Shown here: positions 35,001-63,174 of the stretch, one piece after another
Layout of the letters: each line of letters opens with the position of its first letter
Position numbering within the stretch: position 1 is the stretch's first letter
Virus record (IMG/VR): IMGVR_UViG_3300025844_000015
Coordinates: 1-64,000 of that record
Direction: 5' to 3' (one strand)
Length of the DNA: 64,000 nt
Source of the DNA: an uncultured virus (IMG/VR IMGVR_UViG_3300025844_000015)
Lineage: Duplodnaviria; Heunggongvirae; Uroviricota; Caudoviricetes
Notes under the pieces: generated by a model
Databases searched by the model: none
Told to the model about the DNA's origin: nothing
Seen by the model: only the letters and a program-made list of their open reading frames with translations
Translations under genes and position numbers: made by a program

Positions 35001-38000
35001 CATCACCCCTAATGTTGTTGTATACATCGTAATAGTCTCTTATATCTTGTATCGATTTTTCGATGTTATCTATTAAGGAGTTGTCACTCAAAACCAAACC
35101 CCCCACATGGAGTCTTCCCGTGGGTTCTGTCGGCCTCAGAAAACTTAAAAACACCCTAGGGGTTTTGATTCCTAAAAAGGGATCATATATTAACTTGTTA
35201 CCGCTAGTGTACTGATTAAACCTGCAAATGTGCGACACCTCGAAAATAGAATAATCCGCACCCGCAATCTTATTTTCGCTGTTCTGTGTTAACAAAACGC
35301 TTGTTTCTCTGTCATTCCTGAAAAATAATAAATTTTCTAAGTCGATGTATTCTCCATTAACATCCAAAACATTTTGTCTTTCGAATAACCCGTTTCTGGC
35401 CCTCTCAAAACTCGAAGGTAACCCTCTATCGTGGCTCACAACAAAATGGTTGTAATATGGATTGGTCATCATTTTAGGAAGAACTTTGTCACTTTTGAAA
35501 ATTTCCAAATACACTTCCCCGGAGCCGGTAGAAAACTCTATAAACCTTCCGGCAGTGGCGTCGTTTTTGGAATATGCCAACTGAATAGCACCAGACCTAG
35601 TAACAATAGCGTAGTATGGTACAAACGCATTAAATGGACTGTTTAATTCTTCCGGCACCGTTCCACCCTCACCCGCTTTCAACCTTACGGCCTGTCCAGT
35701 CGCCAAGAACTGTCCAGAAGGACTGATAAAAGAGCTAGAATCAACGTTTACCGTTGCAGATATTCTCGGGGGGAGTTCTTCTGCTCTCTGTATTAGAGTG
35801 TCTAGCCACACAATATACTTTTCAATTTCCAAAATCCATTCATTGTCTCTTCCACTGTCTTCGGCTTTATTGGTCTTGTCAAAAGGAACTGACTTAATAC
35901 CGCGATCTTCCAGCAGAGCTTCATAACCAAAGAGAATATCTATGAGAGATTGTATTCTGGTTACGTTTTGAGCTTCAAAGAGGGTTTTAACGAGGCGAGT
36001 GTCTGGTTCATGTCTTCTGAATGCATAGTCTATTCTGTTCAACGGTTTAAACGTGTTTGTGACTTTTCCGACCCAGAAGTTACCAGAACCCGCAGTGGCA
36101 AAATTTATAACAGTTCCCAATTTTGCTAGGTCTTCACTCTCTGAAATCTGGAATGTTGTACCGTTAATCTTTACGATATAATAGGGAATATAATTCAGTA
36201 GTTCTCCCGGTAGTACCCCGTCTGTGTTTAAAAATACCTCTTGCCCGGTTTCCCACGGGATTGTTATGGTATTTTCTGGGCTTACAATTCCGTCTACGAT
36301 GTCGTCAGTTATAACAACATCTTCCAAGACTTTAACTAGAGTCTCGTTTCTTCTAAAATCGTATATTACGTCGTCAACTGTATACGTCCCACCATAGTTG
36401 GTAGAAGAAGAGACCGTTATCTGGTCACCAGCCGAAAACTCTCCCAAAACGTTGCCATAAACATAGAATATTTTTTTGAACTCGAAATCAGTTATGCCGT
36501 CCTCAGACACTAAGCCCGAAGATATTACGGGAAAAAGGCTGTCTAGGCTAATGCTTATTGAAGAACCGAGACCCGTGGCCTCGCTGCGGATGATCAAATA
36601 TCCGTTTTCTAAATCGATAAAGGCACCACTTATTTGATCATTGATACTGGCGATAACGTCACCAACTGTCGGAGTATTGGGAGAGAGTGACCCGTCTATG
36701 GTGACAACAGTAGACGTTGTGCCGTCGATATCAATAGTAAACTGGTATGGCCCTGCCGTTAACCCAGTAACATCCGTCAACGCTAAAGGTGAAGAATATA
36801 TAGCTCTCCAAAAGCCTCTAGGTGAGTCTATTTCTGTGGCCTTGATTTGATACCCACCGGTTGTAAAAGTATTTGTTCCCACCAATCTAACTTGGTAATT
36901 TTGTGGTGGATAATATTCTATAGTTTTCTTCTTTTTAGGACTTTTAATATATGGTTTGAAAACCCAGTTGCTTGTTTCGTAATGAGTTCTTTCCGTGATT
37001 GGGGCTCTTTTTTGGACCGCCCAATTTATCGCGGAGAATGTATTTTCGGTCGAGTTTAGCTGGCGATCAATGAATGTCGCATAATCTCTAGCAACTATGT
37101 CGATCTGGTCCCCCGAAACACCTAATGTAGTGTCGTTGATCAGAGTGTTAAAAATGTATGCTGCGTTTACATTCCAACCAATCCATAAATCCCTATAGTC
37201 AGAAGATCCCCCGTCTAACTCCAGATATCTATTGTAATTAACGATCCACTGCTGTATACCCGCAGAATAATAAACCGTGCCATCTTCTCTGTAGTCTCCG
37301 TGGAATAGAGTTTTAAAATGTGGATTTATATTTTGGGTTTCTTTGTTAGCAAGCAAGCAATCTACTTGTACCAAATCATCACCATAGTTTCTGCTAAAAA
37401 ATTCTATTGGATCACACAAAAAAGACGCCTTGAGCAAGAAATATAAGTAGCTACTACTATTTTTCCATTTCCACTCAACTGGACCATCTTGTCCAAAAAG
37501 AAAATCCGCATTTGGAGAAGATACATAATTGCCAAGACTCTTGTCGAATAGTGGTTTAAAGCGGGGGTCTGCCGATAGCGAACCATCCCAATATGGTGGT
37601 GCCAGTTCATCACTAGCAATACCCGCCACGGTACTTCCGGTTACGTTAACGGGAGAGTAATCGTAAATTTGAGTTTCTCCACTGTTGCCAGTAGAAATAG
37701 TTCCATTTGGTAATTCTTGTCCGGCTGGGACGACTCCAGTGAATATGTTATCCCACATAGTTTCTTTCCAGAATCGATCTATTCCTAAATCGTTATTCTT
37801 GTATGTGGTCTTCCACCATGTGGGCTCTTCTTCATAACCTTGCAAGATCCAAGGTTCTCGGTGGGGATATGCTGTTCCATATATTTCTTCATACAATCCC
37901 TGCCACGATGCCTTTCCCCTAGCAGAAAAAACTCCGGAAAGTGGATGTGTTGCTATGTCGGTATTGGCGTAGTTCCATGTAAAAGCATCCCCGCTCTGGA

Positions 38001-41000
38001 ACGCGGTGTTGTGTAGTGCATCTTCTCCGACCAAACACAAAAATTCGGTCTCTTCAAGATCTCTAAAACGACTGTTTGTTTTAGTCAACTCTAGATTATA
38101 AAATTCGTCTAATGGCTCTCTGTGCTGTCCGGCAGAGTATAACAGAGTTTCCAACTCGTAAAGCAAATTGGCAATTTGTCCGATCACATCAATCTCGGTC
38201 CATGAACCTGATTCTAATTGATACAAAGATATGCTTTTTTCGGAAGAAACCCCCCTAACCAAATAGTCTCCTTCTGCATAATCTGCTATATCCGGGAAAG
38301 CTTCACTGTCTTCGGACACCTTCTGTGTATTTTTGGTTAGTATTCCGTAGAATTTGCTCTTCTGAGCGTTCGTTATATCTAATGTGAAATATGTGCCATC
38401 GTGTCTTTTGACTATCCAGTCTTCACCCCGTTTGAATATAGAAGGTTTAGAAAGCCCCGTCATTCTCAAAATTGCCGAAGTTGATATTACGTTTTTGATC
38501 CCATATCCATCAGCGTAACTAAAAGAATCTCCAAACAAACGATCCCATCTTGTGTTATTTTCGGTGTAATTTTCGAAGTTTTCTATTAAATCGACTTCTG
38601 ACATTTCTAAAAAAGTAGAAAGATTTTCTAGATATCGTAATGTCCACCTATAAGTAAGTCGTTCGTATGCGTCCCCCACAAAATCTAAAGTTTTGGGTAT
38701 ATCAATTTGTTCCCCCAACATCGCAGAGACTAGTAGGTCGAGGTTGCCGTTGTGTTCTTTGATGGTACCACCCAATCCGAAGTTTGGATTGTTCAAAGCA
38801 TGAAACACTTCTTCTGGGTTTGTCGAATTGTATTTTGTCGGTTCTTGTGCTAATGTTATAGTTTTGAAATGTCTAAATAAGTCGGTGAGACTTACTTCCT
38901 TTCTAAGCTCATGCTGTATGTTATATTTCCAACTGTTGGGTATGTCCCAGTCACTTTCTATTTTTTCTGGGACGGATTGTTCATTAAACTCTCCTTTCTT
39001 CCAAATAGTTTTAATCTTATTGTCCCTTAAATCTAAATAGCAGCGTAATTTTCCTTCAGAATCCACAAGACCGTGTTCAAAAACTAGATCTCGTTCATTC
39101 CTCTTGTATTCTGCTCTTAGGTCTAACGTTCTATTCAACTCAAATTCTCCATTTTCTTTAAACCAGAAAATAGAGTTAGATTCTTCTAGTGGGTTTCCTA
39201 GAATATCATATATTTTGAACAAGGGATATTGGTTAGTTTTGGTTTTAGTTTGTTCTATTCTCTTATATCGAGACAGGTTATAGATATCTGGTGAATTTCC
39301 CGTAGGATCAACCACTACAACGTCTTTTCGACCGATGTCGTGTGTCCAATATTCTCCTAATTCGATACGAACTAGCGTGTCCGGGGTGATAACTAGGTCA
39401 CTATCTAGAACAATAGCCCCAACGTAATTGGTATTGTTGGCGGGAATGTCTGTATGTCTTCCATATATTCTTTTTCCGTCGATATACAGACGAAGGTCTC
39501 CTTCTTGGTAATCCTCAATCAAACACAAATCCGTAAGAGATTCATCAAGCTCCAACCTAGCTCCATTTATTGTAGAAGTAGGGTTGAATTCTTGCCAGTA
39601 TAGCCCTATTTTGGTTTGGTATTCTTGGAAAACGCTATTTGTCTCTGTCTTAATTTGTATAGCAGGTCCATCTAGCATGGGGTTTTTTTCGGGCTCTGCA
39701 CCACTGGCTGTGATATTTTTTATTCCAACAAAAGCCCAGTGAGTAACCAGTGGATCAAAAGTATCCCCCAAACTGGTACGTTCCGGGTAGATTGTTCCCC
39801 CTCCATCAGAAATGTCATCGCCCACGCTGAAGAAATTCTCTACTACCCGGATAACGGATTGATATCTTTCACCCGGAGTAAATTGTACAAATTCTACACT
39901 GTCAATAGTGTACTGGCCGTCGTTGGTGTTAAATCCAACGAGATTTATATTGTCGCCCTTTGTGAGAACCGATTCCATATTACCAAATCTGGCCGGTAGT
40001 AGTAATTCGTTTGAAGCTAACTGAAAAACTGGGACATTTTCGCTATCTGATTCTTCTATTTTTATAGGTCTAATTTCTAAAAGATTGGGTTGGTCTTCAA
40101 CTTTTTTGTATTGATCTTCAACTGTCTTTCGGTAAGCCCATTCAAATTCAAATTTGGAAAAGTAGGAAAGCTCTATGTAGTTCTTATATTCTATAATCGG
40201 TTGTGTTGCCTGACGACTTTCCGAAAGATTCGTAATTTGGTTTTTGTGTACCCACTTGTTTTCATCAGCCCAGTCGTTGCTGTCCGCTCGTAATTTGCTG
40301 TTTTCACTTTCGTACAATATAGAAAAAGACCTGACTTTCGTCTTCCACTGTCCGTCAATCCATTGATATAAAATGTCAGTGGTCGTATCGAAGAAAAAAT
40401 CATTTTCTTGGGCATATACATTTGCAGATAGACTATCTTTGACGTATATTTGATAAGAAATATTTTCGTCTTTGAAAAATTCAACACCGTCAACTAAAAA
40501 TCTATCAGGGTCACCAAAAACTGCACCTTCGACCCAACTAGATAAATCATGGTCCCCTGTGTTTGGGCCACTATTTATTTTGATTCCGTACTCGGCACCG
40601 ACAACAAGCTCTGACGCGGGTCCACCGAAATATTGTATTACTTCGTTTTCGCCAAGTGACAGTACGAAGCCCCCATTTGACGAAAAAACTTCCCGACGGT
40701 CATACCATACGGGCTCGCCGAGGTCATAGATGTTTATTTCGTCAACCTGCTGTGGCTCTGCCACATCTTGAAAATATATGGATTCACTTCTAGCGGCGTA
40801 TGCATAAGCATGAACAGATACCCGTGTAGGGGAGGTTTGGGGGACAGTTTTAAGCGTGAATACACTTTCATTATTGTCTTCGTCAAACTCGTAAGATTGA
40901 ACCTCGACAAATTCTTGTATACCATCCAAATCCGTATATAAACTTAAAATAAAACCTTCACGAGCCCCCGTCAAAAATGACCCGGATACTCGAAGTTCTG

Positions 41001-41721
41001 TGTTTTCCAAAGAAACAATTTCTCTATCCAAACGAACATACTCATTAAACGAAGTCAGGTTTAGAGTCCAACCATCAAGACTCAGATAACTACCGTCTGT
41101 TTCTTTAACCACAGCTACATATATGTTCTGTTCTACATCGTGGACGATAAAAATTCCAGCACTCTCAGAGTCGAGGTTAGTTGTTGGGTTAGATGTAATA
41201 ATGTCAGAGAAAACACCTTTCTTCAACTCGTCGTATTTTGCTTCTGAACGGGTTCTCTGGACTTCTACTGTGATATAGTTTGGAGTAGTGTTTCTGTCAG
41301 TCCAGTAGTAGTCTTGATAATTTATTATCTTATCAATGTTTACAGGAGGTAGAAAATTAAATTGTAACGCTTTACCCCATTCACCAAAACTCTCAAGGTC
41401 CACCCCATCACGTTCTAGGTTTTTAAGGAATTTCTCAAATGTCAAGAACTTGGTTTCCGCACCCAGAGTTGCACTGATAACCTCTTGGAGTTGGTTCTTC
41501 TGCAAATACTCTCTACCTTCTGATATTCTAGACAAAACCGAATTGTCTATTTCTTTTCCAACATATCCCGTTACTTCTTCAAAATTCTTTTTTGTGAGGA
41601 AGCGGTTTAAGATGTTGTTGGAAATTCCGTTCCAAAGTCGGCTACGAGAATATTCTGGAAGTAAAGAAGAGGTATCAACTACCTCTCCTTTTTTGTAGTC
41701 GGTGATGTGCTTTCGAGACAT
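32050..41721 (-). CDS. Giant (3223 aa) virion structural protein with C-terminal (PT/VTPS)n linker and beta-rich domain
   Basis: Uninterrupted 9.7 kb ORF downstream of baseplate genes; TAAATA at 41748-41753; PPVNIDKIINYQDYYW and DEFWAYK.CEFG motifs. Confidence 0.85.
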   Translation of the reverse strand: MSRKHITDYKKGEVVDTSSLLPEYSRSRLWNGISNNILNRFLTKKNFEEVTGYVGKEIDNSVLSRISEGREYLQKNQLQEVISATLGAETKFLTFEKFLKNLERDGVDLESFGEWGKALQFNFLPPVNIDKIINYQDYYWTDRNTTPNYITVEVQRTRSEAKYDELKKGVFSDIITSNPTTNLDSESAGIFIVHDVEQNIYVAVVKETDGSYLSLDGWTLNLTSFNEYVRLDREIVSLENTELRVSGSFLTGAREGFILSLYTDLDGIQEFVEVQSYEFDEDNNESVFTLKTVPQTSPTRVSVHAYAYAARSESIYFQDVAEPQQVDEINIYDLGEPVWYDRREVFSSNGGFVLSLGENEVIQYFGGPASELVVGAEYGIKINSGPNTGDHDLSSWVEGAVFGDPDRFLVDGVEFFKDENISYQIYVKDSLSANVYAQENDFFFDTTTDILYQWIDGQWKTKVRSFSILYESENSKLRADSNDWADENKWVHKNQITNLSESRQATQPIIEYKNYIELSYFSKFEFEWAYRKTVEDQYKKVEDQPNLLEIRPIKIEESDSENVPVFQLASNELLLPARFGNMESVLTKGDNINLVGFNTNDGQYTIDSVEFVQFTPGERYQSVIRVVENFFSVGDDISDGGGTIYPERTSLGDTFDPLVTHWAFVGIKNITASGAEPEKNPMLDGPAIQIKTETNSVFQEYQTKIGLYWQEFNPTSTINGARLELDESLTDLCLIEDYQEGDLRLYIDGKRIYGRHTDIPANNTNYVGAIVLDSDLVITPDTLVRIELGEYWTHDIGRKDVVVVDPTGNSPDIYNLSRYKRIEQTKTKTNQYPLFKIYDILGNPLEESNSIFWFKENGEFELNRTLDLRAEYKRNERDLVFEHGLVDSEGKLRCYLDLRDNKIKTIWKKGEFNEQSVPEKIESDWDIPNSWKYNIQHELRKEVSLTDLFRHFKTITLAQEPTKYNSTNPEEVFHALNNPNFGLGGTIKEHNGNLDLLVSAMLGEQIDIPKTLDFVGDAYERLTYRWTLRYLENLSTFLEMSEVDLIENFENYTENNTRWDRLFGDSFSYADGYGIKNVISTSAILRMTGLSKPSIFKRGEDWIVKRHDGTYFTLDITNAQKSKFYGILTKNTQKVSEDSEAFPDIADYAEGDYLVRGVSSEKSISLYQLESGSWTEIDVIGQIANLLYELETLLYSAGQHREPLDEFYNLELTKTNSRFRDLEETEFLCLVGEDALHNTAFQSGDAFTWNYANTDIATHPLSGVFSARGKASWQGLYEEIYGTAYPHREPWILQGYEEEPTWWKTTYKNNDLGIDRFWKETMWDNIFTGVVPAGQELPNGTISTGNSGETQIYDYSPVNVTGSTVAGIASDELAPPYWDGSLSADPRFKPLFDKSLGNYVSSPNADFLFGQDGPVEWKWKNSSSYLYFLLKASFLCDPIEFFSRNYGDDLVQVDCLLANKETQNINPHFKTLFHGDYREDGTVYYSAGIQQWIVNYNRYLELDGGSSDYRDLWIGWNVNAAYIFNTLINDTTLGVSGDQIDIVARDYATFIDRQLNSTENTFSAINWAVQKRAPITERTHYETSNWVFKPYIKSPKKKKTIEYYPPQNYQVRLVGTNTFTTGGYQIKATEIDSPRGFWRAIYSSPLALTDVTGLTAGPYQFTIDIDGTTSTVVTIDGSLSPNTPTVGDVIASINDQISGAFIDLENGYLIIRSEATGLGSSISISLDSLFPVISSGLVSEDGITDFEFKKIFYVYGNVLGEFSAGDQITVSSSTNYGGTYTVDDVIYDFRRNETLVKVLEDVVITDDIVDGIVSPENTITIPWETGQEVFLNTDGVLPGELLNYIPYYIVKINGTTFQISESEDLAKLGTVINFATAGSGNFWVGKVTNTFKPLNRIDYAFRRHEPDTRLVKTLFEAQNVTRIQSLIDILFGYEALLEDRGIKSVPFDKTNKAEDSGRDNEWILEIEKYIVWLDTLIQRAEELPPRISATVNVDSSSFISPSGQFLATGQAVRLKAGEGGTVPEELNSPFNAFVPYYAIVTRSGAIQLAYSKNDATAGRFIEFSTGSGEVYLEIFKSDKVLPKMMTNPYYNHFVVSHDRGLPSSFERARNGLFERQNVLDVNGEYIDLENLLFFRNDRETSVLLTQNSENKIAGADYSIFEVSHICRFNQYTSGNKLIYDPFLGIKTPRVFLSFLRPTEPTGRLHVGGLVLSDNSLIDNIEKSIQDIRDYYDVYNNIRGDDTTEAVRRSVGYQGPKQYMENLGINEKSQFVFWKSFVQNKGTNFSLEAFTNQRALTGVTVDEFWAYKLCEFGDSKKKAYPEIKLNTDDVIRKELRLEFVPPTGGTIGKDYIPIRLTDFNRWENLPDVVDLMKPFKGYFLDVEETEIFTNAENLIQTSTITSITNNPVLRLNVPVYGAKIEYEISDEKFIASEGVDYRFINGLVIEFIATNIEVWQNITVTGLRYSYDSTNIFKLIDNKREERVVADIPIWNPAFGQENPVGNYPIDFKLEKDPASYTLDFDVNSSSGAFIKRESFWEEKQIGKVWLDITKKGYVPYYDKFIFPNQEERSLKWGNLADYGEIEMYRWTESDFSPEDYINEVEKQSLENIPLGEKLTGNPKSVVYKKVVNPGAGQARWEEEKTIVRSFPKAGIESSDLEDFTPEQFLDLYVNGKFTLRFNYVSYDVFLATLALAETFGLDIPDNSIITLVKEAVVPSEEEIDNGDYIRVHPHSKIDYIDRVSGDIKSKYYFWVRGDKSQKLLNNTTLTLFDAERELSDMTKPYAVIEGFREEGDGYGVLFGATYDPDDNNLPLRFSQLIIKGLANSVKNNSDYVLRLRKDFTLRDDLGLDLEKKNKHVDWKLIRKNQTSKIDFILWRKVVESTTGFEVVDELFNIDERVPVPSEERVRYDVLVRGASTRIGLGREQTLVDRDILRKLITQVLFEPNRKWSVGDIEAFYESYDLTVPEGYVQLLRAIYALFTVKEVNDIFFEILENSMIAKKKHPDFFKTSWVAVDVGNAGTILEGETLEIVKVVGSELECAVDVPPPPTPTPTPTVSVTPSVTPSVTPSVTPILSPTPTPSAASVPIWVDITPDTYWTGDPTTGDGQTPTVYTNPCWTKSFEGFNSMNIVINPAYENINIQGVRFTLTSSGTGGVSGDTQVTFDAISGGAGYQAMELVDGVPQIFEYTGLSGIIGTGANIDILGFAFSGEITLCSIEILTSDIIP
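32511..32558 (-). repeat. 12-nt coding tandem repeat (TTGGTGTAACAC x4 on +) encoding (VTPS)n
   Basis: Units start at 32511, 32523, 32535 and 32547. Confidence 0.95.
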
Positions 41722-51828: not shown

Positions 51829-52067
51829 CGAGTAACGATAGGAGTGCGCTGAAGCGATATTCACAATCCTTGAATGTAGGTATGCAAAATTTAATTAAAA
51901 GTGCTATTCACTTAGCCTATTTCATGAGAGGTGGTGTTCAATACGAGGACATCCTAGATAGGACCTTCTACGAACGAAAGATGATGATGGAATATATCAA
52001 CGAAAGACTACAGTATGAAACAAAAAAACTTAAAGACACCAAGGGCAAACTCCCTCCGATATATTAA
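51810..52067 (+). CDS. Chaperone C-terminal module (gp51-like), open in the -1 frame from the T9 run
   Basis: AYFMRGGVQYEDIL.RT.YER motif; frame open from 51810 to the stop at 52067. Confidence 0.7.
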   Translation, partial: FFFNILASNDRSALKRYSQSLNVGMQNLIKSAIHLAYFMRGGVQYEDILDRTFYERKMMMEYINERLQYETKKLKDTKGKLPPIY

Positions 52068-52783
52068 TGAACATAGTAGCTATTGATCCATCAACCACTT
52101 GTACCGGGATATGTATAAACGGAAACCGAATGGTTGCCGTTGCCCAAGAAAGTTTAGTATGTTCTAAAAAAGGTGACTTCGTGAAATGGTTTGATCTCGC
52201 ATCCAATATTTGTGAAATTAAAACATACGAAAATTACAAAGAGAAAGAAACTTTTACCGGTGTAGAAGTGGAAAAATTGCGATACTATCAAACAATAGCA
52301 AATATTGTAATCAAAACAGTTGAAGAAAAATATAAGCCACATGATACAAAAATTTGTATCGAAGGGTTTAGTTATAACTCCAAAGCTGGAAATCTTATAG
52401 ATCTTGTAACTTTTTCGACTCTAATACGAAGTCGCTTTCTCAACAACGGTTATGGGCTTATTGTCGTTCCACCCATGTCCCTCAAACAAGGTGCTGCTAA
52501 ATTGGTATACCCGCGCGTTGACATAAAAAATAAAGACAGAGACCCAAAACTGACTCCATTGAAACCTAAATTTATGTACCTAAACCCCGAGGGTGTTCCG
52601 GGGGGGAAATTCAAAAAACATGAAATGCTTCGTGCAATCGTAGATTCTCATTTTAAAGACGACTGGAAGAAATTTATTGACGCCAATTATTCAGATATCA
52701 GTTCTATGAAGTCAATACCTGCACCTATCGCAGATTTGAATGACGCCTATTTACTATACCATTACATCAAAGATGATAAATAA
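52067..52783 (+). CDS. RuvC-like Holliday junction resolvase
   Basis: IVAIDPSTTCTG...ICIEGFSY...PP.SLK...DLNDAY acidic motif order. Confidence 0.75.
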   Translation: MNIVAIDPSTTCTGICINGNRMVAVAQESLVCSKKGDFVKWFDLASNICEIKTYENYKEKETFTGVEVEKLRYYQTIANIVIKTVEEKYKPHDTKICIEGFSYNSKAGNLIDLVTFSTLIRSRFLNNGYGLIVVPPMSLKQGAAKLVYPRVDIKNKDRDPKLTPLKPKFMYLNPEGVPGGKFKKHEMLRAIVDSHFKDDWKKFIDANYSDISSMKSIPAPIADLNDAYLLYHYIKDDK

Positions 52784-52807: not shown

Positions 52808-54127
52808 ATGAAAATTTTACAAGTACTTGAGGCCACTACCTACATGACGGATATTTCGTCAAATGATTTCGGTCAAATGAGCCAATTTTTCTCTTTTCTT
52901 GAAAAAGAAAAAAAGGGGTACAATCTCTCTCTGGATGATGTAATGCGTTTTGTGCTAACAATCAAAAGCAAAAAGAGCGCTCTGCGAAACGTAGCAGGTT
53001 CAGGAGAAGAAATATCAAGGTCCCTTGCTTCGTCAACTGTCGGAAGAGAAGCCAATCTTGCAAGAGGGTTCAGTGATACCAAAGATGTAAATCTAGGTGA
53101 AACCAGTATTGATAATATGCATGCAGTAGGAAAAGCATTAGAGGCCGCAGGATATGCAGAACTAAACGATGATCCACGCAAATCAACAATAGACCGAGAC
53201 GCAACCGCGAGATTATTGAAATTCATCAACACTATTAAAGCTAGTGGTTTCAATACACCACGACAGGTAGCTCAAAATTTCGAGAAGGCCGTTGGTTCAT
53301 ATCGCCGTGGTGTAGAGGGCTTCAAACAAGATATCGGTAGAGGGAACAGTGATCTTGATATTGCTAAAGATCGAGTAAGTAATATAACACCAAACATGTT
53401 AATGTTTCTGGCCGCAGTAGTAAAGAAAAAAGGTAGAAGTGAAGCGTGGGACAACTACCTAAACCCTGATAACTATGATGAACCACCGTTGCCGGGTTAT
53501 ACTCCGGGGTCATACAATCCCCGTGAAGCCGCTAAAGAACTAATAGCTATGGGACTTACAACCAAAACACCCAAAAAAGGACTGATAACTCTAAACAAGG
53601 ATGCAATTAAAAAATCGGTTTCAGCCCTCCGCAACGAGTTAGAAGAATTAAAAACAGGTAGCATCGAACAACCCGGTAACGTTAACACAAAAAGTCTAAA
53701 AGCCGTTGAACAAAATGCTAAAGCGTTAATCGACAAGATTGACTCAATGGTTCCTAATGACATCAAACGACTGGCAGAAAGTAAACTAGCAGCGGCACTT
53801 AGAAAAGCCAGTGAAGATACCGGTGACGATTCTTTTATTCAAGCCTATAACTTGTATACTAACAAACTAGCCCAATCAAGCGAAAGTGAAGCCGTGGGTG
53901 ATGCTTCCGAAAGAATCAAAAAAACCCACTTAGGTAGTGTTATCGCTTTCCTGAGAGCCAGAATCATCGGTCGCATGCTTTACCATTACGCATCGATGGT
54001 AATAGGCGATGGAAAAAAGTGGAAAGCACCAAACAAAGACTATGGATTTACTGGTCCAAAAGAACTATCTATGGTAAGAAGCGCGCTCAAAAGTGGCGAT
54101 GCATTAAAAACGTCACGTCTTTACTGA
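52808..54127 (+). CDS. Hypothetical late protein, possibly head-internal (MKILQVLE/A leader)
   Basis: TAAATA at 52777-52782; 439-aa ORF. Confidence 0.75.
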   Translation: MKILQVLEATTYMTDISSNDFGQMSQFFSFLEKEKKGYNLSLDDVMRFVLTIKSKKSALRNVAGSGEEISRSLASSTVGREANLARGFSDTKDVNLGETSIDNMHAVGKALEAAGYAELNDDPRKSTIDRDATARLLKFINTIKASGFNTPRQVAQNFEKAVGSYRRGVEGFKQDIGRGNSDLDIAKDRVSNITPNMLMFLAAVVKKKGRSEAWDNYLNPDNYDEPPLPGYTPGSYNPREAAKELIAMGLTTKTPKKGLITLNKDAIKKSVSALRNELEELKTGSIEQPGNVNTKSLKAVEQNAKALIDKIDSMVPNDIKRLAESKLAAALRKASEDTGDDSFIQAYNLYTNKLAQSSESEAVGDASERIKKTHLGSVIAFLRARIIGRMLYHYASMVIGDGKKWKAPNKDYGFTGPKELSMVRSALKSGDALKTSRLY

Positions 54128-54134
54128 AAAAAGC

Positions 54135-54166
54135 TTGACTTCACCTTCCCCAAGCATATATAAATA
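54135..54166 (+). promoter_or_regulatory. Composite promoter: sigma70-like TTGACT...TATA plus TATAAATA late motif, with no CDS directly downstream
   Basis: TTGACT at 54135-54140; TATAAATA at 54159-54166. Confidence 0.7.
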
Positions 54167-54167
54167 A

Positions 54168-54502
54168 CCCTGTTCCCAACTTTGCAGTAAAGGAACACTT
54201 ACAATTTGCATATCCCGAACAGGCTGCACAAATGTCGGACAGGGTGGATAGTAGACGATGAGGTTGCTATCCCATAGAAAAGCCCTAAAGGTCTGAATGA
54301 GGGGATTATACGTTGGTAACGCTTTCGGGACAGGCTGGACGTATAAATCCTAGACTCATGAAAACAAGTTCATTGTTCATCGCAGTGAAAGGTCTTGGAT
54401 CAATATTGATCGCGAATGACTGGAGATCGTCTTTGTACTGCAAATACAATGATCTTGTTATGGTAGTAGCAAGATAGATTCACCTACCTAGGTTGGAACG
54501 GG
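54168..54502 (+). ncRNA. Putative large structured non-coding RNA of unknown family (about 335 nt)
   Basis: Ends pair (54168-54180 with 54492-54502); long-range helix 54181-54189/54436-54444; several internal hairpins with G-U pairs; loop-loop complementarity 54213-54219/54324-54330; promoter directly upstream; no ORF of 60 aa or more. Confidence 0.65.
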
Positions 54503-54626
54503 AAATTTCCTAAACAAATTTATTATACAATTTTGTTAAAAAATGGGGGAGAGTATTTTAAAACCCTTCAAAAAATATTCAAAAACACTGTAACCTACAA
54601 AATAGAAATAAAACAGAAACAAAATA

Positions 54627-54675
54627 AAGAATGTAAATGCGAACGGAGCGAAGCGTAGTGAGTATTTACATTCTT
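54627..54675. other. Inverted repeat enclosing a GCGAAGC mini-hairpin in an A-rich intergenic tract (origin-like)
   Basis: AAGAATGTAAATGC...GTATTTACATTCTT arms; GCGAAGC at 54648-54654. Confidence 0.5.
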
Positions 54676-54829
54676 GTAAAAAAAAAACGAAATAACAAAT
54701 TAATGGGGACCCCTTCGGGTCCCTCGGAGTCCGCTGTCGCGAACATCCGACTTGCTCTGCGCTCTTTAATAAGGTACAATATACGGTACACCCAAATAGG
54801 TACAGACAAATGAACTACAAACAAATAGG

Positions 54830-57541
54830 TTGAATATGAAACACGAAGAGATACTTGAAAATAACGAAAAGAAAATTCTAGAGACACTAGGAAACAGAAG
54901 TGTGTTCGACGCTTGGAAGAAAGCTCTAAATTACACGCCCAGAGATTCTCAAGAGAAGGTAATGGAGTGGATTGATACGTTGCCACCTGAAATCAAGTAC
55001 ATTTTAGTAGAAGCCCCCGTAGGCTGTCATGCAATAGATACACCAATAATAGGCTATGACGGACACATCAAACTGGTTCAAGAAATAAAGGTTGGGGATC
55101 AACTAATGGGACCTGATGGAAAAAAGCGTACCGTTTTGGAACTGCATCGAGGTACTCAACAGATGTATAAGATAACACCGGTAAAAGGTGACCCATTTGT
55201 CGTCAACCAAGACCACATACTATCGTTGAAAACCACTCCGCTGGGAGGTAGGTACAATGTGTCAGGGAGCGAAATAGTAAACATTTCTGTTCGTGATTAT
55301 CTGAATAAATCGAATCACTTTAAAAGAAATCACAAACTGTATCGACCGGATTTCATTGAATTTACGGATTCTCAGTCTTTTCAGTCTTGCAACGAAAAAC
55401 AGCAAGAGATAAACCCATATTTCATGGGAGTACTGTTGGGGGATGGATGTATGAAAAAATGTGCTTCAGTTACCACTATCGATTATCAAATTGCACAGAC
55501 CGTATATGAACAAGCGGAAGTATTTGGACTTGAGGTTAGGGAACAAGTCAAAGAATCTACACATGCAATACAGTATTACTTGTCTAGTGGAAGGTCTCAG
55601 CTATATGAAGACCGAAACCGCTTGATCGATATTCTGAAGAGAAACGGCTTGTATGGAAAAACTTCAGGGAATAAGTTTATTCCACACATGTACAAGGTTG
55701 GAAATAAGTTAACACGACTCGAAATACTGGCAGGGCTTATAGACACCGATGGAAGTCACAACGGTAGAGGGGGTTTTGATTATGTAACTAAATCCCCCCA
55801 GTTGGCAGAAGACATTAAGTTCATATGCAGAAGTTTGGGACTATCTGTAAATTCCAGTATAAAGACGGTAGATGGAAAAAAATATGCAAGAATATGTATT
55901 AGTGGTAACACAGATATTATACCTACCCGTTTGGAGAGAAAAAAGGCACCACCTCGAAAACAAAAAAAGAGACCCACAGTGACCGGGTTTTCGATAGAAA
56001 AACTTGATGTAGATGAATATTACGGCTTTTCTCTGGATGAAGACCATCTCTATTTGTTGGGGGATTTCATAGTAACACACAATTCAGGAAAATCTAATTT
56101 AGCAATGGCATTCAGTTCTTACATTAGTGATAGAATGGGTGATTCGTTCATATTAACTCCACAGAAAACGCTACAGCGCCAATATGAAGAGTCATTTGAA
56201 AAACATCTTCTTTTTTCTGTATACGGAAGAAGTAATTATGAATGCGAACAAAAAAACACGACTTGTGATGTAGGCGCGGATATTAAACCTGCATGTGATA
56301 ATTGTCCCGCTAAACTCGCAAGAGATATGTCTATTACATCACCTAATGCCGTAATGAACTATACATTAGCTCTAACTTATTTCAAATACTTGAGAAAAAT
56401 GATTCCCCCTAGAAATTTAATGGTGTTGGATGAAGCACATACCTTGGAATCCAACCTTGTCGAATTCAGTTCGATTTCTGTAACGGACAAGAAATGTAAG
56501 AAATACAACGTCAAGTTCCAGTTCGCTCGTAGCGCCGCTGAGGCCATAAATTGGATAAGTCGTACCTATCTACCTGCCGTCGAAGCAAAATCGATAGAGC
56601 TACGTAAGAAGGTGACTGAGATCGAAACTAGAGGTGGGGCACTGAGTAAATCTGACATACAGACTGTTCGTGCTGCCATAACAGCCACGGAACATCGTAA
56701 CCAATTAGTAGATCTAGTAGAAATGGACATGTCTCTAATAGACAAGAAATACGTCCTTGTGTCTGAAAAAGTTGGATTCAAATTCAAGGAACTCTACGCC
56801 AAGAATAATTTTAAAAACATTTGTTTACCAATGGCAAATCGTTTTCTCTTTATGTCATCTACTATTCTGGATAAAGACGAATTCTGTCGAGACTTGGGGA
56901 TCGACCCAGATGAGTCTGCTATGATTTCTCTTGATTCCGAATTTCCAGAAGAAAACAGGGAAGTAATATTTTCTCCCGTTACCAAAATGAATTATGGGTG
57001 GAACTCTGAAGAAAGAACACAAGATCGTAAGAAGATGATGACCCACATCAATCATGTATGTAGCTATCATGCGGACGAGTCGGGTGTGATACACACGGGT
57101 TCTTTCCAAGTTTCCCAGTGGATTCTTGAAAACATAAAGACAAATCATAGAATCATTCATCATAATCCCGGTTTCAATCTTAGTAGAGATGAAGCTATTG
57201 ACACCTTTTTGGAGTGTTCTGAAAAAGAACCAACTTTGCTGATATCTCCTTCTGTGACTGAAGGCATGGACTTGAAGGATAATCGCGGAAGATTTGCACT
57301 TATAGTCAAAGTTCCGTATCCGTATTTAGGAGATGCGTGGACAAAACGACGTATGCAGATTTCCAAGGACTGGTACAACCGACAGGCTATTACAGGAATA
57401 ATTCAGGGTTGTGGTAGAGTTGTACGTTCCAAGGATGACTGGGGTACGGTATACATTCTCGACGAGTCCTTCGAATATTTGTATAATCAGACTAGAAAAA
57501 TGATTCCATCATGGTGGAAGAGAGGATTGACAGTAGTATGA
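54830..57541 (+). CDS. DinG/Rad3-like SF2 helicase containing an intein
   Basis: EAPVG|intein|SGKS Walker A, LQRQY, Cys cluster, VLDEAH, MSSTI, SPSVTEGMD and QGCGRVVRSKDDWG motifs. Confidence 0.92.
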   Translation: MNMKHEEILENNEKKILETLGNRSVFDAWKKALNYTPRDSQEKVMEWIDTLPPEIKYILVEAPVGCHAIDTPIIGYDGHIKLVQEIKVGDQLMGPDGKKRTVLELHRGTQQMYKITPVKGDPFVVNQDHILSLKTTPLGGRYNVSGSEIVNISVRDYLNKSNHFKRNHKLYRPDFIEFTDSQSFQSCNEKQQEINPYFMGVLLGDGCMKKCASVTTIDYQIAQTVYEQAEVFGLEVREQVKESTHAIQYYLSSGRSQLYEDRNRLIDILKRNGLYGKTSGNKFIPHMYKVGNKLTRLEILAGLIDTDGSHNGRGGFDYVTKSPQLAEDIKFICRSLGLSVNSSIKTVDGKKYARICISGNTDIIPTRLERKKAPPRKQKKRPTVTGFSIEKLDVDEYYGFSLDEDHLYLLGDFIVTHNSGKSNLAMAFSSYISDRMGDSFILTPQKTLQRQYEESFEKHLLFSVYGRSNYECEQKNTTCDVGADIKPACDNCPAKLARDMSITSPNAVMNYTLALTYFKYLRKMIPPRNLMVLDEAHTLESNLVEFSSISVTDKKCKKYNVKFQFARSAAEAINWISRTYLPAVEAKSIELRKKVTEIETRGGALSKSDIQTVRAAITATEHRNQLVDLVEMDMSLIDKKYVLVSEKVGFKFKELYAKNNFKNICLPMANRFLFMSSTILDKDEFCRDLGIDPDESAMISLDSEFPEENREVIFSPVTKMNYGWNSEERTQDRKKMMTHINHVCSYHADESGVIHTGSFQVSQWILENIKTNHRIIHHNPGFNLSRDEAIDTFLECSEKEPTLLISPSVTEGMDLKDNRGRFALIVKVPYPYLGDAWTKRRMQISKDWYNRQAITGIIQGCGRVVRSKDDWGTVYILDESFEYLYNQTRKMIPSWWKRGLTVV
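55025..56083 (+). mobile_element. Contiguous intein (353 aa) with LAGLIDADG homing endonuclease in the helicase P-loop
   Basis: Starts CHAIDTPI; VNQDHIL; MGVLLGDG and LAGLIDTDG motifs; ends FIVTHN|S. Confidence 0.95.
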
Positions 57542-61464: not shown

Positions 61465-62510
61465 TATAAACCTCTGTAAATTTTTTTAAGTTCTTCAGAT
61501 TCAATTTCTTCAGCCTTGATTTTTCCTAACAGGGCTAAAACTATTTCGTCCGTACTTTCCGACTCCAAGTCTTCCTCGTCTATGTCTTCGCTGATCTTAT
61601 AATCATCGACAGGCTCTTCCATTTTCAGTTCCCTGAGAGAGTATTTGTTGATAAGAACTTCCTTGATATGCAGAATATCTTCGAAACCCAAGTCTTTCTC
61701 ATCAACCAGACAGGTTACAGTTGCCTTGGGTCTAAGATAATCTTTCGGATTCTCCAGAAGATCACTTAGAGAACATCTGATGTAGGTTGGTGCTTCTTCC
61801 CAATCAATGTATTTTAGATTATCATTTTCGAAATCGTAGATCGCCATACCACGTTCTGTTTGATTGGCGTCACTATAGTCCATCGGGAAAGTATTGCCAA
61901 TATAATGAACGTTTTTCTTTTCCTGTCTTTTGTGGAAGTGGCCGGTGAATATCCGATCAGGCCCCCTGAAATCTTCTTGATCGGGTCCGTGTTCTAGAAC
62001 CTTGGTTTCTCCCGTCAAAACGAATCCCTTGAACTCAAAGTGTCCAAAGACTACGTCATGAGAGTTGATCACCACAATTTGTTCAGCATATTCTTCTTCG
62101 AAAAGATACGGACAGAAAAGAATACTCTTGTTGCCGATTTTGACACTTATATTATCATCCACCAGAATTAGATTACCAAATGGTTCAAAAATTACAGTGT
62201 TAAAAGAGTTACGATTGTTTCTGTAGACTAAATCATGATTTCCTACGATTAGAAAAAATGGAAGTTTCAGTTCTTCGACCAACTGTTTAATTATTTTGTG
62301 TGATCGGTCTAGGGTTTTTCCTGTGATAGCATCTCGGTGTTCAAACCAATCACCACAAAATACAATTATGTCAACCTTTTCTTTTTTACAATTGTCTATA
62401 AACCAGTCAATGTAATCTTGACAATCATTCAAATGAACATCACTACTGTTTTTTCTACCTAGATGGATGTCGGTGAACATTGCAGCTTTTTTTACATTAT
62501 TCAGATTCAT
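61464..62510 (-). CDS. Recombination nuclease, gp47/SbcD/Mre11-like
   Basis: FTDIHLG, GDWFE, VGNHD, FGHFE and TGHFH motifs; AGGAG before the ATG at 62510. Confidence 0.93.
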   Translation of the reverse strand: MNLNNVKKAAMFTDIHLGRKNSSDVHLNDCQDYIDWFIDNCKKEKVDIIVFCGDWFEHRDAITGKTLDRSHKIIKQLVEELKLPFFLIVGNHDLVYRNNRNSFNTVIFEPFGNLILVDDNISVKIGNKSILFCPYLFEEEYAEQIVVINSHDVVFGHFEFKGFVLTGETKVLEHGPDQEDFRGPDRIFTGHFHKRQEKKNVHYIGNTFPMDYSDANQTERGMAIYDFENDNLKYIDWEEAPTYIRCSLSDLLENPKDYLRPKATVTCLVDEKDLGFEDILHIKEVLINKYSLRELKMEEPVDDYKISEDIDEEDLESESTDEIVLALLGKIKAEEIESEELKKIYRGL

Positions 62511-63174
62511 ATTCATCTCCTGAATATTGTTTGTATGTCGGATCGTAGATCGACGAAAGTTCACTTATCTCTCTTTTTAGGAACTCGCAAACAGAAACTT
62601 TATTTTCCCTGTCCTCTTCCTTTTTCAAAATGGTTGATACCATATCTCGGTGGATATTTCTAGTCGCTTCTTTGTCTTCTACAACTCTGGCAATTTCTCG
62701 CATCAATAGATTTTTGAAACGTTCGGAAATTTTCTTTTTGGCAACAGACTCTAGATATGCTTCCTCTAGTTCCATTTCTCTGAAATCTTCTTCGTAGGTG
62801 TGTGATGGAAGTTCTCCCTCTTTCAATAATAAAGCATCTTTGATATTTCTTTGTGATTTTTCTGAATCTAAAAATTGCCAAAAAGCCCGTTTAATGGTCT
62901 GGGTGAAATATGCAAAAGGGTTGTAGTATGTATTTGGGTCAAAGCTGTCCCAGCCCCTACACACAATTGTAAAGGCATATGATTCCATATCCTCACGATA
63001 TGTGTAACTTGCATAACTACCCTGAGACGAATATCGTTTGGCTAGTATCATGATCATCTCGCCAAAACGCTCAGTCATTCTGCCTTGTGTTTTGCTCTTG
63101 ATAACTTCTTCAAGCATTTCTTTGTTATTGATGTAATATTGATCTTTTTTTGTTTTTCTTTTTCTTGTAGTCAT
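62497..63174 (-). CDS. Late-transcription sigma factor (T4 gp55-like)
   Basis: YINNKEML...LAKRYS...YTYREDM...FDP...NPFAYFTQ..RAF; located next to gp47/gp46 as in T4. Confidence 0.85.
   Translation of the reverse strand: MTTRKRKTKKDQYYINNKEMLEEVIKSKTQGRMTERFGEMIMILAKRYSSQGSYASYTYREDMESYAFTIVCRGWDSFDPNTYYNPFAYFTQTIKRAFWQFLDSEKSQRNIKDALLLKEGELPSHTYEEDFREMELEEAYLESVAKKKISERFKNLLMREIARVVEDKEATRNIHRDMVSTILKKEEDRENKVSVCEFLKREISELSSIYDPTYKQYSGDEYESE

What the first reader, a model, noticed from the sequence alone, without database searches (positions are those of the whole stretch)
54135..54502. Unannotated ~335-nt highly structured RNA with its own promoter
Seen: TTGACT/TATAAATA is followed at once by a region with no ORF of 60 aa or more. 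Its ends pair (CCCTGTTCCCAAC 54168-80 with GTTGGAACGGG 54492-502), and a second long-range helix forms between TTTGCAGTA 54181-89 and TACTGCAAA 54436-44. Nested helices: TCGGAC-AGGG 54235-44 with CCCT..GTCTGA 54283-96; GGATAGTAG 54246-54 with TTGCTATCC 54264-72; GGATTATACGTT 54303-14 with GACGTATAAATCC 54338-50; ATCTTGTTA 54452-60 with TAGCAAGAT 54467-75. Two hairpin loops are complementary (TCCCGAA 54213-19 and TTCGGGA 54324-30), and each is followed by CAGGCTG, suggesting a kissing loop or pseudoknot. Frequent G-U pairs point to RNA on the + strand. I could not match tRNA, tmRNA, RNase P or group I/II intron signatures. Inference: a new phage ncRNA class (ribozyme, packaging or scaffold RNA, or replication primer RNA).
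Basis: partly seen in the sequence, partly recalled or inferred. Interest (0 to 1): 0.85.

Follow-up and report, generated by a model that had tools for sequence, protein, structure and literature searches.

The report
New structured RNA in jumbo phages
Between two genes of an uncultivated giant bacteriophage lies a gene for a roughly 340-base RNA that folds into many hairpins locked together by matching loops; it resembles no known RNA family, and its job is unknown.

Summary
Window 54136-54512 (+) carries a conserved promoter (TTGACT, 17-18 nt, TATAAATA) and a ~340-nt non-coding stretch. Its fold is kept by compensatory changes in 10 distinct phage lineages.

- No Rfam family, tRNA or tmRNA matches.
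- Central domain, 10 sequences: 93% of cells paired and 37 of 48 pairs changed on both sides. Shuffles gave 73% and 18; 0 of 500 reached the observed values.
- 3' domain, 7 sequences: 27 of 40 pairs changed on both sides, against 15 in shuffles.
- Three long-range loop pairings co-vary. One is new: CGAUGA x UCAUCG.
- All three, plus a new helix CAGGCU x GGUCUG, held in three lineages found afterwards.

The RNA is far better conserved than its flanking genes, occurs once per genome, and always sits before an early-type helicase that has its own promoter.

Most likely it is a stand-alone structural RNA of the GOLLD/ROOL kind but a new family. Function and expression are untested. Cultured relatives (XacN1, Xoo-sp13, RAS14, CM1) hold a different co-varying RNA at the same locus.

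The parts
54136..54141 (+). -35-like hexamer TTGACT
   Evidence: TTGAC(A/T), a 17-18 nt spacer, then TATAAAT is present in 8 of the 9 lineages that keep a 5' flank. These are the window, L006, L038, L011, L013, L039, L016 and L047; it was not found in L056, and L040 is cut. It is the only site in the window that combines both elements.
54159..54166 (+). -10 element TATAAATA, which is also the T4-type late-promoter word
   Evidence: 11 copies in the window against 4.5 expected. 8 of the other 10 copies lie 24-32 nt before the start of a same-strand ORF of at least 80 aa.
54171..54197 (+). H1, the 5' hairpin; its loop carries K3a at 54181-54187
   Evidence: A local hairpin starts a few bases after the promoter in the nine lineages where the 5' end could be read; it was not defined in L056. 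The stems differ in sequence.
54213..54219 (+). K1a, a single strand that pairs with the apical loop of H4
   Evidence: 50 of 50 cells paired; 4 of 5 columns have compensatory change; 7 distinct duplexes in 10 lineages.
54220..54225 (+). a1 (CAGGCU), inside the near-invariant ACAGGCUGC; pairs with a3
   Evidence: 60 of 60 cells paired. Both strands changed together in L016 (UGGGCU/GGUCCA) and L056 (CGGGCU/GGUCCG).
54235..54240 (+).
   Evidence: 52 of 60 cells paired, 1 compensatory column. In the CM alignments helix 1 has 0 of 6 and 1 of 6 pairs changed on both sides.
54241..54286 (+). P2b (54241-54245 with 54282-54286), which encloses H3
   Evidence: 5 of 5 pairs changed on both sides.
54246..54272 (+). 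H3 hairpin; its loop carries K2a at 54256-54262
   Evidence: 8 of 9 pairs changed on both sides. One pair shows AU, GC, UA and CG.
54290..54295 (+). a3 (GGUCUG), inside the conserved AAAGGUCUG
   Evidence: See a1.
54297..54359 (+). H4, a long bulged hairpin (sub-helices a-d); its apical loop carries K1b at 54324-54330
   Evidence: Helices 4-7 in the CM alignment: 17 of 21 pairs changed on both sides. A conserved NGA bulge lies on the 3' side.
54369..54389 (+). H5 hairpin; its loop UUCAUCG carries K2b at 54376-54382
   Evidence: 6 of 7 pairs changed on both sides. For K2, 55 of 60 cells are paired and 6 of 6 columns are compensatory.
54391..54421 (+). H6, a two-part hairpin
   Evidence: Helices 2-3 of the 3'-domain alignment: 6 of 9 pairs changed on both sides.
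54425..54481 (+). Junction helix J (54425-54428 with 54477-54481), which encloses H7 and H8
   Evidence: 3 of 4 pairs changed on both sides, but only 83% of cells are paired. This is the weakest helix.
54429..54453 (+). H7 hairpin; its loop carries K3b at 54438-54444
   Evidence: 8 of 9 pairs changed on both sides. For K3, 67 of 70 cells are paired, 7 of 7 columns are compensatory, and there are 9 distinct duplexes in 10 lineages.
54454..54473 (+). H8 hairpin with the conserved loop AUGGUAG
   Evidence: 5 of 7 pairs changed on both sides.
54482..54512 (+). Small hairpin H9 and the tail UAGGUUGGAnnGGGnAAUUUCCUA
   Evidence: The tail is identical in 7 lineages. It has diverged in L016, L047 and L056. 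H9 shows no compensatory change.
54513..54551 (+). Downstream A/U hairpin followed by AAAAAAUGGGGGAG
   Evidence: The hairpin co-varies and the G-run is present in all 10 lineages. The G-run motif occurs exactly only here in the window. No conserved reading frame starts at its AUG.
54629..54673 (+). Long A/U hairpin with a conserved loop (GCGAGCGUnAGCGAGU type)
   Evidence: Stems differ and the loop is conserved in 8 lineages. Whether it belongs to the same transcript is unknown.

Best explanation
This is a separate gene for a non-coding RNA of about 340 nt, read from the + strand.

Transcription:
- It starts a few bases after TATAAATA, at about 54171 (inferred from promoter geometry).
- It runs at least to 54512.

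The fold:
- Nine helices or hairpins.
- One continuous 13-nt strand (54213-54225) binds two partners. One is the apical loop of the long hairpin H4 (K1). The other is the strand just before the base of H4 (a1:a3), which makes a pseudoknot.
- Two loop-loop kisses tie together H3 with H5 (K2) and the 5' hairpin H1 with H7 (K3).
- The product is a rigid RNA particle that displays invariant single-stranded words: ACAGGCUGC, AAAGGUCUG, GAAAC and the 3' tail.

Shown:
- The gene is conserved.
- The base pairs and the three long-range pairings exist.
- The + strand is the folded one.
- There is a single copy per genome.
- It matches no known family.

Inferred:
- It acts in trans as a structural RNA, either a scaffold or decoy for a protein partner or a self-assembling particle. 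It belongs to the same kind as the phage RNAs GOLLD and ROOL.
- The promoter has a host-type -35/-10 whose -10 doubles as the phage's late-promoter word, so it may be made both early and late.
For: Conservation:
- 10 distinct lineages: the window, L006, L038, L040, L011, L013, L039, L016, L047 and L056.
- Window against L006: the RNA has 90% column identity. The helicase DNA has 75% and the RuvC-like gene 69%. The upstream ORF cannot be aligned as DNA and is 34% identical as protein.
- 1-2 nt indels rule out a conserved reading frame.

Covariation in alignments made by models trained only on the 4 closest lineages:
- Central domain: 93.2% of cells paired against 72.8% shuffled. 37 of 48 pairs changed on both sides against 18.4 +/- 2.5. 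0 of 500 shuffles reach this. Slid partners give 34-42%.
- 3' domain: 93.1% against 74.2%; 27 of 40 pairs against 14.6 +/- 2.3; 0 of 500.

Long-range pairings:
- K1 50/50, K2 55/60, K3 67/70 and a1:a3 60/60 cells paired.
- Compensatory columns: 4/5, 6/6, 7/7 and 2/6.
- Of 28 possible loop-zone pairs, only these three reach a run of at least 5 in all 7 lineages tested.
- They held, with new sequences, in L016, L047 and L056, which were found without using them.

Independence from the helicase:
- The RNA has its own conserved promoter.
- A separate promoter-like site lies directly before the helicase in L016, L013 and RAS14.

Copy number: one per genome.

No known family.
Against: - No transcript evidence exists. 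No RNA run holds the sequence.
- No intrinsic terminator follows the core on the + strand.
- The next 200 nt carry further conserved elements. The transcript may therefore be longer, or reach the helicase.
- The RNA precedes the helicase in 10 of 10 lineages. That fits a cis role as well as plain synteny.
- The kissing-loop registers were set by hand.
- For K1, per-lineage shuffles of the large zones are weak: 66-483 of 1000 reach the observed run.
- a1:a3 rests on two lineages only.
- No partner protein, ligand or activity is known.
- The 3' model did not find L016.
Confidence: 0.6

Rival explanations
1. It is a cis-acting leader. The structured RNA and the conserved elements after it form one long 5' untranslated region. 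That region controls transcription read-through or translation of the DinG-like helicase, for instance by binding a protein or a small molecule.
For: - The RNA sits before the helicase in 10 of 10 lineages.
- No + strand terminator follows the core.
- Conserved hairpins and a G-run fill the 330 nt up to the helicase.
Against: - Promoter-like sites lie directly before the helicase: TTGACT-17-TATAAT in L016 and RAS14, and similar in L013.
- G+C-rich hairpins with U-rich tails precede those sites in L011 and L013.
- The core ends about 320 nt before the start codon.
- No Rfam riboswitch or leader matches.
- Three tertiary locks in 340 nt exceed what known leaders of this kind need (the last point is inference).
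Confidence: 0.12
2. It is a replication-origin transcript. A strong promoter makes a folded pre-primer RNA whose G-run forms a stable RNA-DNA hybrid in the A+T-rich DNA downstream. This would be like ColE1 RNA II or the T4 origin transcripts (recalled knowledge).
For: - It lies at the edge of the replication and recombination block: helicase, SbcCD-like genes and a late sigma-like ORF.
- The 120 nt after the core are A+T-rich and hold the conserved AAAAAAUGGGGGAG.
- Cumulative GC skew turns at about 50 kb, 4 kb away.
Against: - The conservation pattern is that of an RNA tertiary fold: loop-loop covariation and invariant single strands. A primer does not need this.
- The skew turn coincides with the switch of gene orientation, which explains it.
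- No origin-type repeats were looked for or seen.
- Nothing ties the G-run to the template strand.
Confidence: 0.1
3. It is a ribozyme. The pseudoknot a1:a3, with its flanking invariant A-rich strands, would be a catalytic core. This could be a self-processing RNA or a small RNase-P-like enzyme serving the large tRNA sets of such phages.
For: - Invariant unpaired words sit next to a co-varying pseudoknot.
- Size and compactness are in the range of large ribozymes.
- XacN1 relatives carry very many tRNA genes (abstract of PMC5852040).
Against: - No match to any Rfam ribozyme, RNase P or intron model at E<=10.
- No tRNA genes in the window.
- The likeness of AAAGGUCUG/ACAGGCUGC to the RNase P P4 strands is recalled from memory and was not tested.
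- No cleavage site can be proposed.
Confidence: 0.1
4. It is a guide-RNA scaffold for a nuclease: an omega-RNA-like partner of the RuvC-like 238-aa protein encoded 1.4 kb upstream.
For: - A RuvC-like ORF (52067-52783) lies two genes upstream.
- Guide scaffolds of IscB/TnpB systems are structured and of similar size (recalled).
Against: - The ORF matches the phage Holliday-junction-resolvase family, not TnpB or IscB.
- It is also present in XacN1-type phages, which lack this RNA.
- The RNA has no variable guide-like end. Its variable 5' part is a hairpin engaged in K3.
- No transposon ends are seen.
Confidence: 0.03
5. It is not an RNA at all: chance complementarity, a decayed gene, or a DNA-level element.
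For: - No expression data exist.
- The simple consensus scan does not list the promoter, because its -10 ends in A.
Against: - The covariation statistics.
- G-U pairs occur on one strand only: 59 of 568 paired cells.
- Conservation exceeds that of the flanking genes.
- The promoter is conserved in 8 of 9 lineages.
Confidence: 0.02

Closest known systems
GOLLD and ROOL RNAs (large 'ornate' RNAs of phages and prophages)
   Same: - Phage-encoded, non-coding and built of many hairpins.
- They have conserved loops and co-varying kissing loops, and their function is unknown.
- In those RNAs, pairings first read as tertiary contacts proved to be contacts between molecules.
- GOLLD rises during lysis (passages of PMC12286853).
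   Different: - No match to their Rfam models.
- About half their length, or less.
- A different architecture.
- Not next to tRNA genes.
- Oligomeric state untested.
phi29 packaging RNA (pRNA)
   Same: A phage RNA gene with its own promoter. Its complementary loops pair to build a ring (recalled knowledge).
   Different: - No Rfam match.
- pRNA is about half the size and belongs to small phi29-like phages (recalled).
- This phage has T4-like tail, recombination and late-promoter features.
- Nothing links the RNA to packaging.
ColE1 RNA II and T4 origin transcripts
   Same: A promoter-driven folded transcript beside replication genes, followed by A+T-rich DNA and a G-run.
   Different: - No antisense partner and no evidence of an origin.
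- Selection here acts on an RNA tertiary fold.
Bacterial RNase P RNA
   Same: Similar length. A long-range helix joins two conserved strands flanked by conserved A residues (the resemblance is recalled, not tested).
   Different: - No hit of any RNase P model at E<=10.
- None of its other conserved regions was recognised.
Unnamed structured RNA in the same gap of phages XacN1, Xoo-sp13, RAS14 and CM1
   Same: - Same locus: after the ~350-aa ORF and before the helicase, in a 690-820 nt unannotated gap.
- Similar size.
- It co-varies: 16 of 59 predicted pairs have compensatory change among 3 sequences.
- It has a co-varying 6-7 bp loop-loop pairing.
   Different: - It cannot be aligned to this RNA.
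- It is not found by either model.
- It shares none of the invariant words.
- Homology is undecided.

Membership tests
Any Rfam 15 family | Covariance-model match at the family's gathering score | tested here: not met
   0 of 4227 families match on the whole window. At E<=10 on 54000-54900 there are 3 weak matches (E 0.95-9.8), all downstream of 54538. No match falls in the gaps of relatives at E<=1.
tRNA / tmRNA | ARAGORN detection (acceptor and T arms, tag frame) | tested here: not met
   0 genes in the window. 0 genes in L006, L007, L008, L009, L011 and L013.
Group I / II intron | Rfam intron model match, and interruption of a reading frame | tested here: not met
   No model match. The upstream ORF ends with a stop at 54127 and a promoter follows. 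The helicase frame starts at 54830, and its N-terminal part (about residues 7-65) aligns in all nine other lineages.
RNase P RNA | Match to an RNase P model | tested here: not met
   No hit at E<=10.
RNase P RNA | pre-tRNA cleavage activity | not testable with these tools
   Needs an enzyme assay.
GOLLD / ROOL kind (ornate phage RNAs) | Sequence and structure homology to the family models | tested here: not met
   No Rfam match.
GOLLD / ROOL kind (ornate phage RNAs) | Large multi-hairpin phage RNA with co-varying kissing loops | tested here: met
GOLLD / ROOL kind (ornate phage RNAs) | RNA-only homo-oligomer | not testable with these tools
   Covariation cannot tell contacts within a molecule from contacts between molecules (PMC12286853 passages).
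Sigma-70-type promoter | TTGACA-like -35, a 17 +/- 1 nt spacer, TATAAT-like -10 | tested here: met
   TTGAC(A/T), 17-18 nt, TATAAAT in 8 of the 9 lineages with a 5' flank. The consensus scan misses it because position 6 of the -10 is A.
T4-type late promoter | TATAAATA about 25-30 nt before late genes (consensus recalled) | tested here: met
   11 sites against 4.5 expected. 8 of the other 10 lie 24-32 nt before ORF starts.
T4-type late promoter | Phage late sigma factor (gp55-like) present | tested here: inconclusive
   ORF 62497-63174 (-) has a sub-threshold Sigma70_r2 match: 19.6 bits against a cut-off of 24. The ORF at the corresponding position in Xoo-sp13, after the recombination endonuclease gene, is annotated as a late sigma factor.

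The most novel reading that the evidence does not exclude
The three co-varying loop pairings, or some of them, may be contacts between molecules. The RNA would then assemble without protein into a defined homo-oligomer, a ring or a small cage, as was found for ROOL and GOLLD.

K1 is the strongest candidate. Its single-stranded partner is contiguous with the helix at the very base of H4, while its other partner is the apical loop of H4, about 22 base pairs away. Within one molecule H4 would have to fold back on itself. Between two molecules no bend is needed.

That would make this the smallest natural self-assembling phage RNA particle. It would be produced from a promoter that may fire both early and late in jumbo phages.
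Probability: 0.25. Interest if true: 0.9.

Novelty: new variant of a known kind. Interest (0 to 1): 0.74.

Why it matters
Large RNAs with intricate, conserved folds are rare. Nearly every one studied has proved to be a ribozyme, a riboswitch, part of an RNA-protein machine or, recently, a self-assembling cage.

This one is compact at about 340 nt. Its fold is defined to the base pair by natural covariation. It carries three testable long-range locks and several invariant exposed strands. It is therefore a ready target for probing, cryo-EM and partner pull-downs.

It also shows that a whole clade of T4-like jumbo phages keeps a structured RNA gene at one fixed locus. Two forms occupy that locus and cannot be aligned to each other. 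One of them lies in cultured phages, where its role can be tested by genetics.

Tried and rejected
**Searches that found nothing new**
- BLAST of the locus against 50,697 phage records: no match.
- Protein-based locus search with the upstream ORF: only near-identical contigs.
- Two motif scans of viral contigs: only contigs already known.
- Scan of 185,579 prokaryote genomes: 3 hits. 0 of 3 carried any other motif of the RNA, so they are chance matches.
- Relaxed three-block motif scan: 10 loci, of which 7 were known contigs and 2 were new true members. One (L048) was not confirmed by either model and is taken as chance.
- This scan's earlier findings: nothing by place or by sequence.

**Expression**
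- No RNA holder is listed among 24 public runs that hold the DNA.

**Upstream 439-aa ORF**
- No Pfam or PHROG family.
- No usable protein-atlas hit; best TM-score 0.28.

**Models**
- A covariance model of the full length was not attempted, judging from the tool's stated limits. Two domain models were built instead.
- The 3' model finds L047 and L056 only weakly and does not find L016.
- Neither model finds anything in XacN1, Xoo-sp13 or RAS14 (whole genomes with R1).

**Readings considered and dropped**
- Hammerhead-like reading of CUGAUGAG...GAAAC. The words form an ordinary co-varying helix (H4a) and no Rfam hammerhead model matches.
- A K-turn at the NGA bulge. It does not fit the consensus as recalled and was not testable.
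- A small ORF starting at the conserved AUGGGGG. Lengths run from about 5 to more than 60 codons and the sequence is not conserved.
- A search for a partner of the invariant tail and of GUCGGAC gave only lineage-specific candidates.

**Literature**
- One search was mis-set and useless.
- Searches found no description of this RNA.
- The XacN1 paper contains none of 'promoter', 'tmRNA', 'non-coding', 'intergenic', 'gp55' or 'helicase'.
- The catalogue of 8,495 candidate structured RNAs from IMG/VR spans 29-151 nt (passages of PMC10690425).
- Four motif words were absent from its 6 searchable supplement files. Three files, including the large ones that may hold the alignments, could not be searched. 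Single hairpins of this RNA may therefore be listed there.
Full report
**The sequence itself**

TTGACT (54136-54141) and TATAAATA (54159-54166) precede a stretch whose largest ORFs are 54, 47 and 38 aa. The + strand folds to -102.9 kcal/mol (z = -3.47; 0 of 100 shuffles as good). The - strand folds less well (z = -2.15; 3 of 100).

**Context**

- The window is part of a 72,885-bp IMG/VR virus record that CheckV rates 21% complete. The phage should therefore have a genome of a few hundred kb.
- Upstream lie tail and baseplate genes, a RuvC-like 238-aa ORF and a 439-aa ORF of no known family.
- Downstream lie a DinG-like helicase, SbcCD-like genes and a weakly sigma-like ORF. In this lineage alone the helicase is interrupted by a Hint/LAGLIDADG intein.
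- The closest cultured phages by helicase (49-51% identity) are the jumbo phages XacN1, Xoo-sp13, RAS14 and CM1. They have the same gene order and an unannotated 690-820 nt gap at the same place.

**Known families**

- Rfam 15: 0 of 4227 families reach gathering score on the window.
- At E<=10 on 54000-54900 there are three weak matches, all beyond 54538.
- ARAGORN finds no tRNA or tmRNA.
- The relatives' gaps have no Rfam match either.

**Homologues**

How the ten distinct sequences were found:
- Helicase-anchored searches gave L006, then L011/L012 and L013.
- A motif scan of metagenome contigs gave 6 loci. Three were duplicates of the window or of L006. Three were new: L038, L039 and L040.
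- A covariance model of the central domain then detected L016.
- A relaxed three-block motif gave L047 and L056, both confirmed by the models, and one chance hit, L048.

That makes ten with the window. All ten lie just before the helicase gene. The RNA occurs once per genome.

Between the window and L006:
- The RNA has 90% column identity.
- The helicase DNA has 75% and the RuvC-like gene 69%.
- The upstream ORF is not alignable as DNA and is 34% identical as protein.
- Indels of 1-2 nt exclude a conserved frame.

**Secondary structure**

I built two models from only the four closest lineages. The structure was mapped from the window, and Infernal aligned the distant lineages.

| Domain | Sequences | Pairs | Cells paired | Shuffled | Pairs changed on both sides | Shuffled | Shuffles reaching it | Slid partners |
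|---|---|---|---|---|---|---|---|---|
| Central | 10 | 48 | 93.2% | 72.8% | 37 | 18.4 +/- 2.5 | 0 of 500 | 34-42% |
| 3' | 7 | 40 | 93.1% | 74.2% | 27 | 14.6 +/- 2.3 | 0 of 500 | 34-45% |

These alignments are fitted to the structure, so they lean towards it. The slid control keeps relatedness and still collapses.

A hand-registered table of 16 helices in 7 lineages gave 607 of 622 cells paired. 59 of 568 paired cells are G-U, which would be mismatches on the other strand.

**Long-range pairings** (ten lineages)

| Pairing | Partners | Cells paired | Compensatory columns | Distinct duplexes |
|---|---|---|---|---|
| K1 | 54213-19 with H4 loop 54324-30 | 50 of 50 | 4 of 5 | 7 of 10 |
| K2 | H3 loop 54256-62 with H5 loop 54376-82 | 55 of 60 | 6 of 6 | 7 of 10 |
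| K3 | H1 loop 54181-87 with H7 loop 54438-44 | 67 of 70 | 7 of 7 | 9 of 10 |
| a1:a3 | CAGGCU 54220-25 with GGUCUG 54290-95 | 60 of 60 | 2 of 6 | 3 of 10 |

- In a1:a3 both strands changed together in L016 and L056.
- Among all 28 pairs of loop zones, only K1, K2 and K3 reach a complementary run of at least 5 in each of 7 lineages.
- Within-loop shuffles reach the observed K3 run in 2-12 of 1000 trials per lineage.
- For K2 the figure is 1-35 of 1000 in five lineages and about 250 of 1000 in two.
- For K1, whose zones are long, it is 66-483 of 1000. K1 therefore rests on its column-wise covariation.
- L016, L047 and L056 were found without reference to these pairings, and they keep them with new sequences. 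Examples are AACACG/CGUGUU, GUAAAC/GUUUAC and AUUUCG/CGAAAU. In L016, K2 and K3 are only 4 bp.

**What does not hold**

It is absent in L013, L039 and L016. Its 3' arm is invariant. Its 5' arm belongs to a local hairpin in the nine lineages where the 5' end could be read, and part of it probably lies before the transcription start.
- TCGGAC/GTCTGA pairs in 52 of 60 cells with one compensatory column. It uses the same 3' strand as the better-supported a1:a3. A switch between the two cannot be excluded.
- The second CAGGCTG copy is not conserved.

**Transcription unit**

- TTGAC(A/T), 17-18 nt, then TATAAAT is present in 8 of the 9 lineages with a 5' flank.
- TATAAATA is the T4 late-promoter word (recalled). 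It occurs 11 times in the window against 4.5 expected, and 8 of the other 10 copies lie 24-32 nt before ORF starts.
- Only the RNA's site also has a -35. Expression both early and late is an inference.
- No + strand terminator follows the core.
- All lineages keep several elements downstream: a co-varying A/U hairpin, AAAAAUGGGGG(A)G, a long A/U hairpin with a conserved loop, and G+C-rich hairpins. A promoter-like site for the helicase follows. The 3' end is therefore unknown.

**Mechanism**

- Shown: a conserved, single-copy RNA fold on the + strand with a pseudoknot and two kissing loops.
- Inferred: a stand-alone structural RNA that presents invariant strands to a partner or to copies of itself.
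- The geometry of K1 is awkward within one molecule and easy between molecules. One partner abuts the base of H4 and the other is its tip. In ROOL and GOLLD, pairings first taken as tertiary proved to be intermolecular (passages of PMC12286853).
- The rivals, in order, are a helicase leader, an origin transcript, a ribozyme and a guide scaffold. Each lacks positive evidence.

**Sister RNA**

- The gaps of XacN1, Xoo-sp13 and RAS14 are conserved among themselves.
- They fold with 16 of 59 pairs compensatory.
- They have a co-varying 6-7 bp loop-loop pairing, while all 27 other loop and strand zone combinations give 4 or fewer.
- They cannot be aligned to this RNA and are not hit by its models.

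**Literature**

No description of either RNA was found. The large supplement files of PMC10690425 could not be searched.

**Limits**

There are ten lineages, four of them close. The long-range registers were set by hand. There is no expression data.

Noticed in passing
L007:4150-4530, L009:4135-4520, L008:4070-4475: The cultured jumbo phages XacN1, Xoo-sp13 and RAS14 (and CM1) carry a different structured RNA in the same unannotated gap before the helicase. 16 of 59 predicted pairs are compensatory. A loop-loop pairing GAGUCAU/AUGACUC becomes UUGUCAU/AUGACAA in RAS14. It has no Rfam match.
   Followed up: partly
window 55025-56086: The DinG-like helicase is interrupted by an intein (Hint plus LAGLIDADG homing endonuclease, residues 66-419). 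None of the nine other lineages has it; their helicases align straight across the site.
   Followed up: partly
window 54513-54551 and 54629-54673: Two further conserved non-coding elements follow the RNA in all or most lineages. The first is an A/U hairpin plus AAAAAAUGGGGGAG. The second is a long A/U hairpin whose stem varies and whose loop (GCGAGCGUnAGCGAGU type) is conserved. Whether they belong to the same transcript is unknown.
   Followed up: partly
window, 11 sites (e.g. 9082, 28012, 41748, 45093, 50706, 58017, 63250): TATAAATA occurs 11 times against 4.5 expected. 8 of the 10 sites other than the RNA's lie 24-32 nt before ORF starts. This fits a T4-type late-promoter system.
   Followed up: partly
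window 52808-54127: The 439-aa ORF just upstream has no Pfam, PHROG or atlas relative. It evolves very fast (34% identity to L006, 23% to XacN1), yet it keeps its place next to the RNA gene.
   Followed up: partly
window 32050-41721 (-): A single ORF of 3223 aa sits next to the baseplate genes, with TATAAATA 27 nt before its start. It was not examined.
   Followed up: no
window 54352-54354 and the same position in relatives: The 3' side of hairpin H4 keeps a three-base bulge of the form NGA in the eight lineages read (L047 and L056 were not checked), next to the conserved C of the basal helix. It may be a kink or a docking site.
   Followed up: no
window 54489-54512 against 54301-54307: The tail word AAUUUCC is complementary to GGGGAUU on the 5' side of H4 in 4 of 8 lineages, with a shifted 7-nt match in L011. 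It could compete with H4b, or it may be chance.
   Followed up: no
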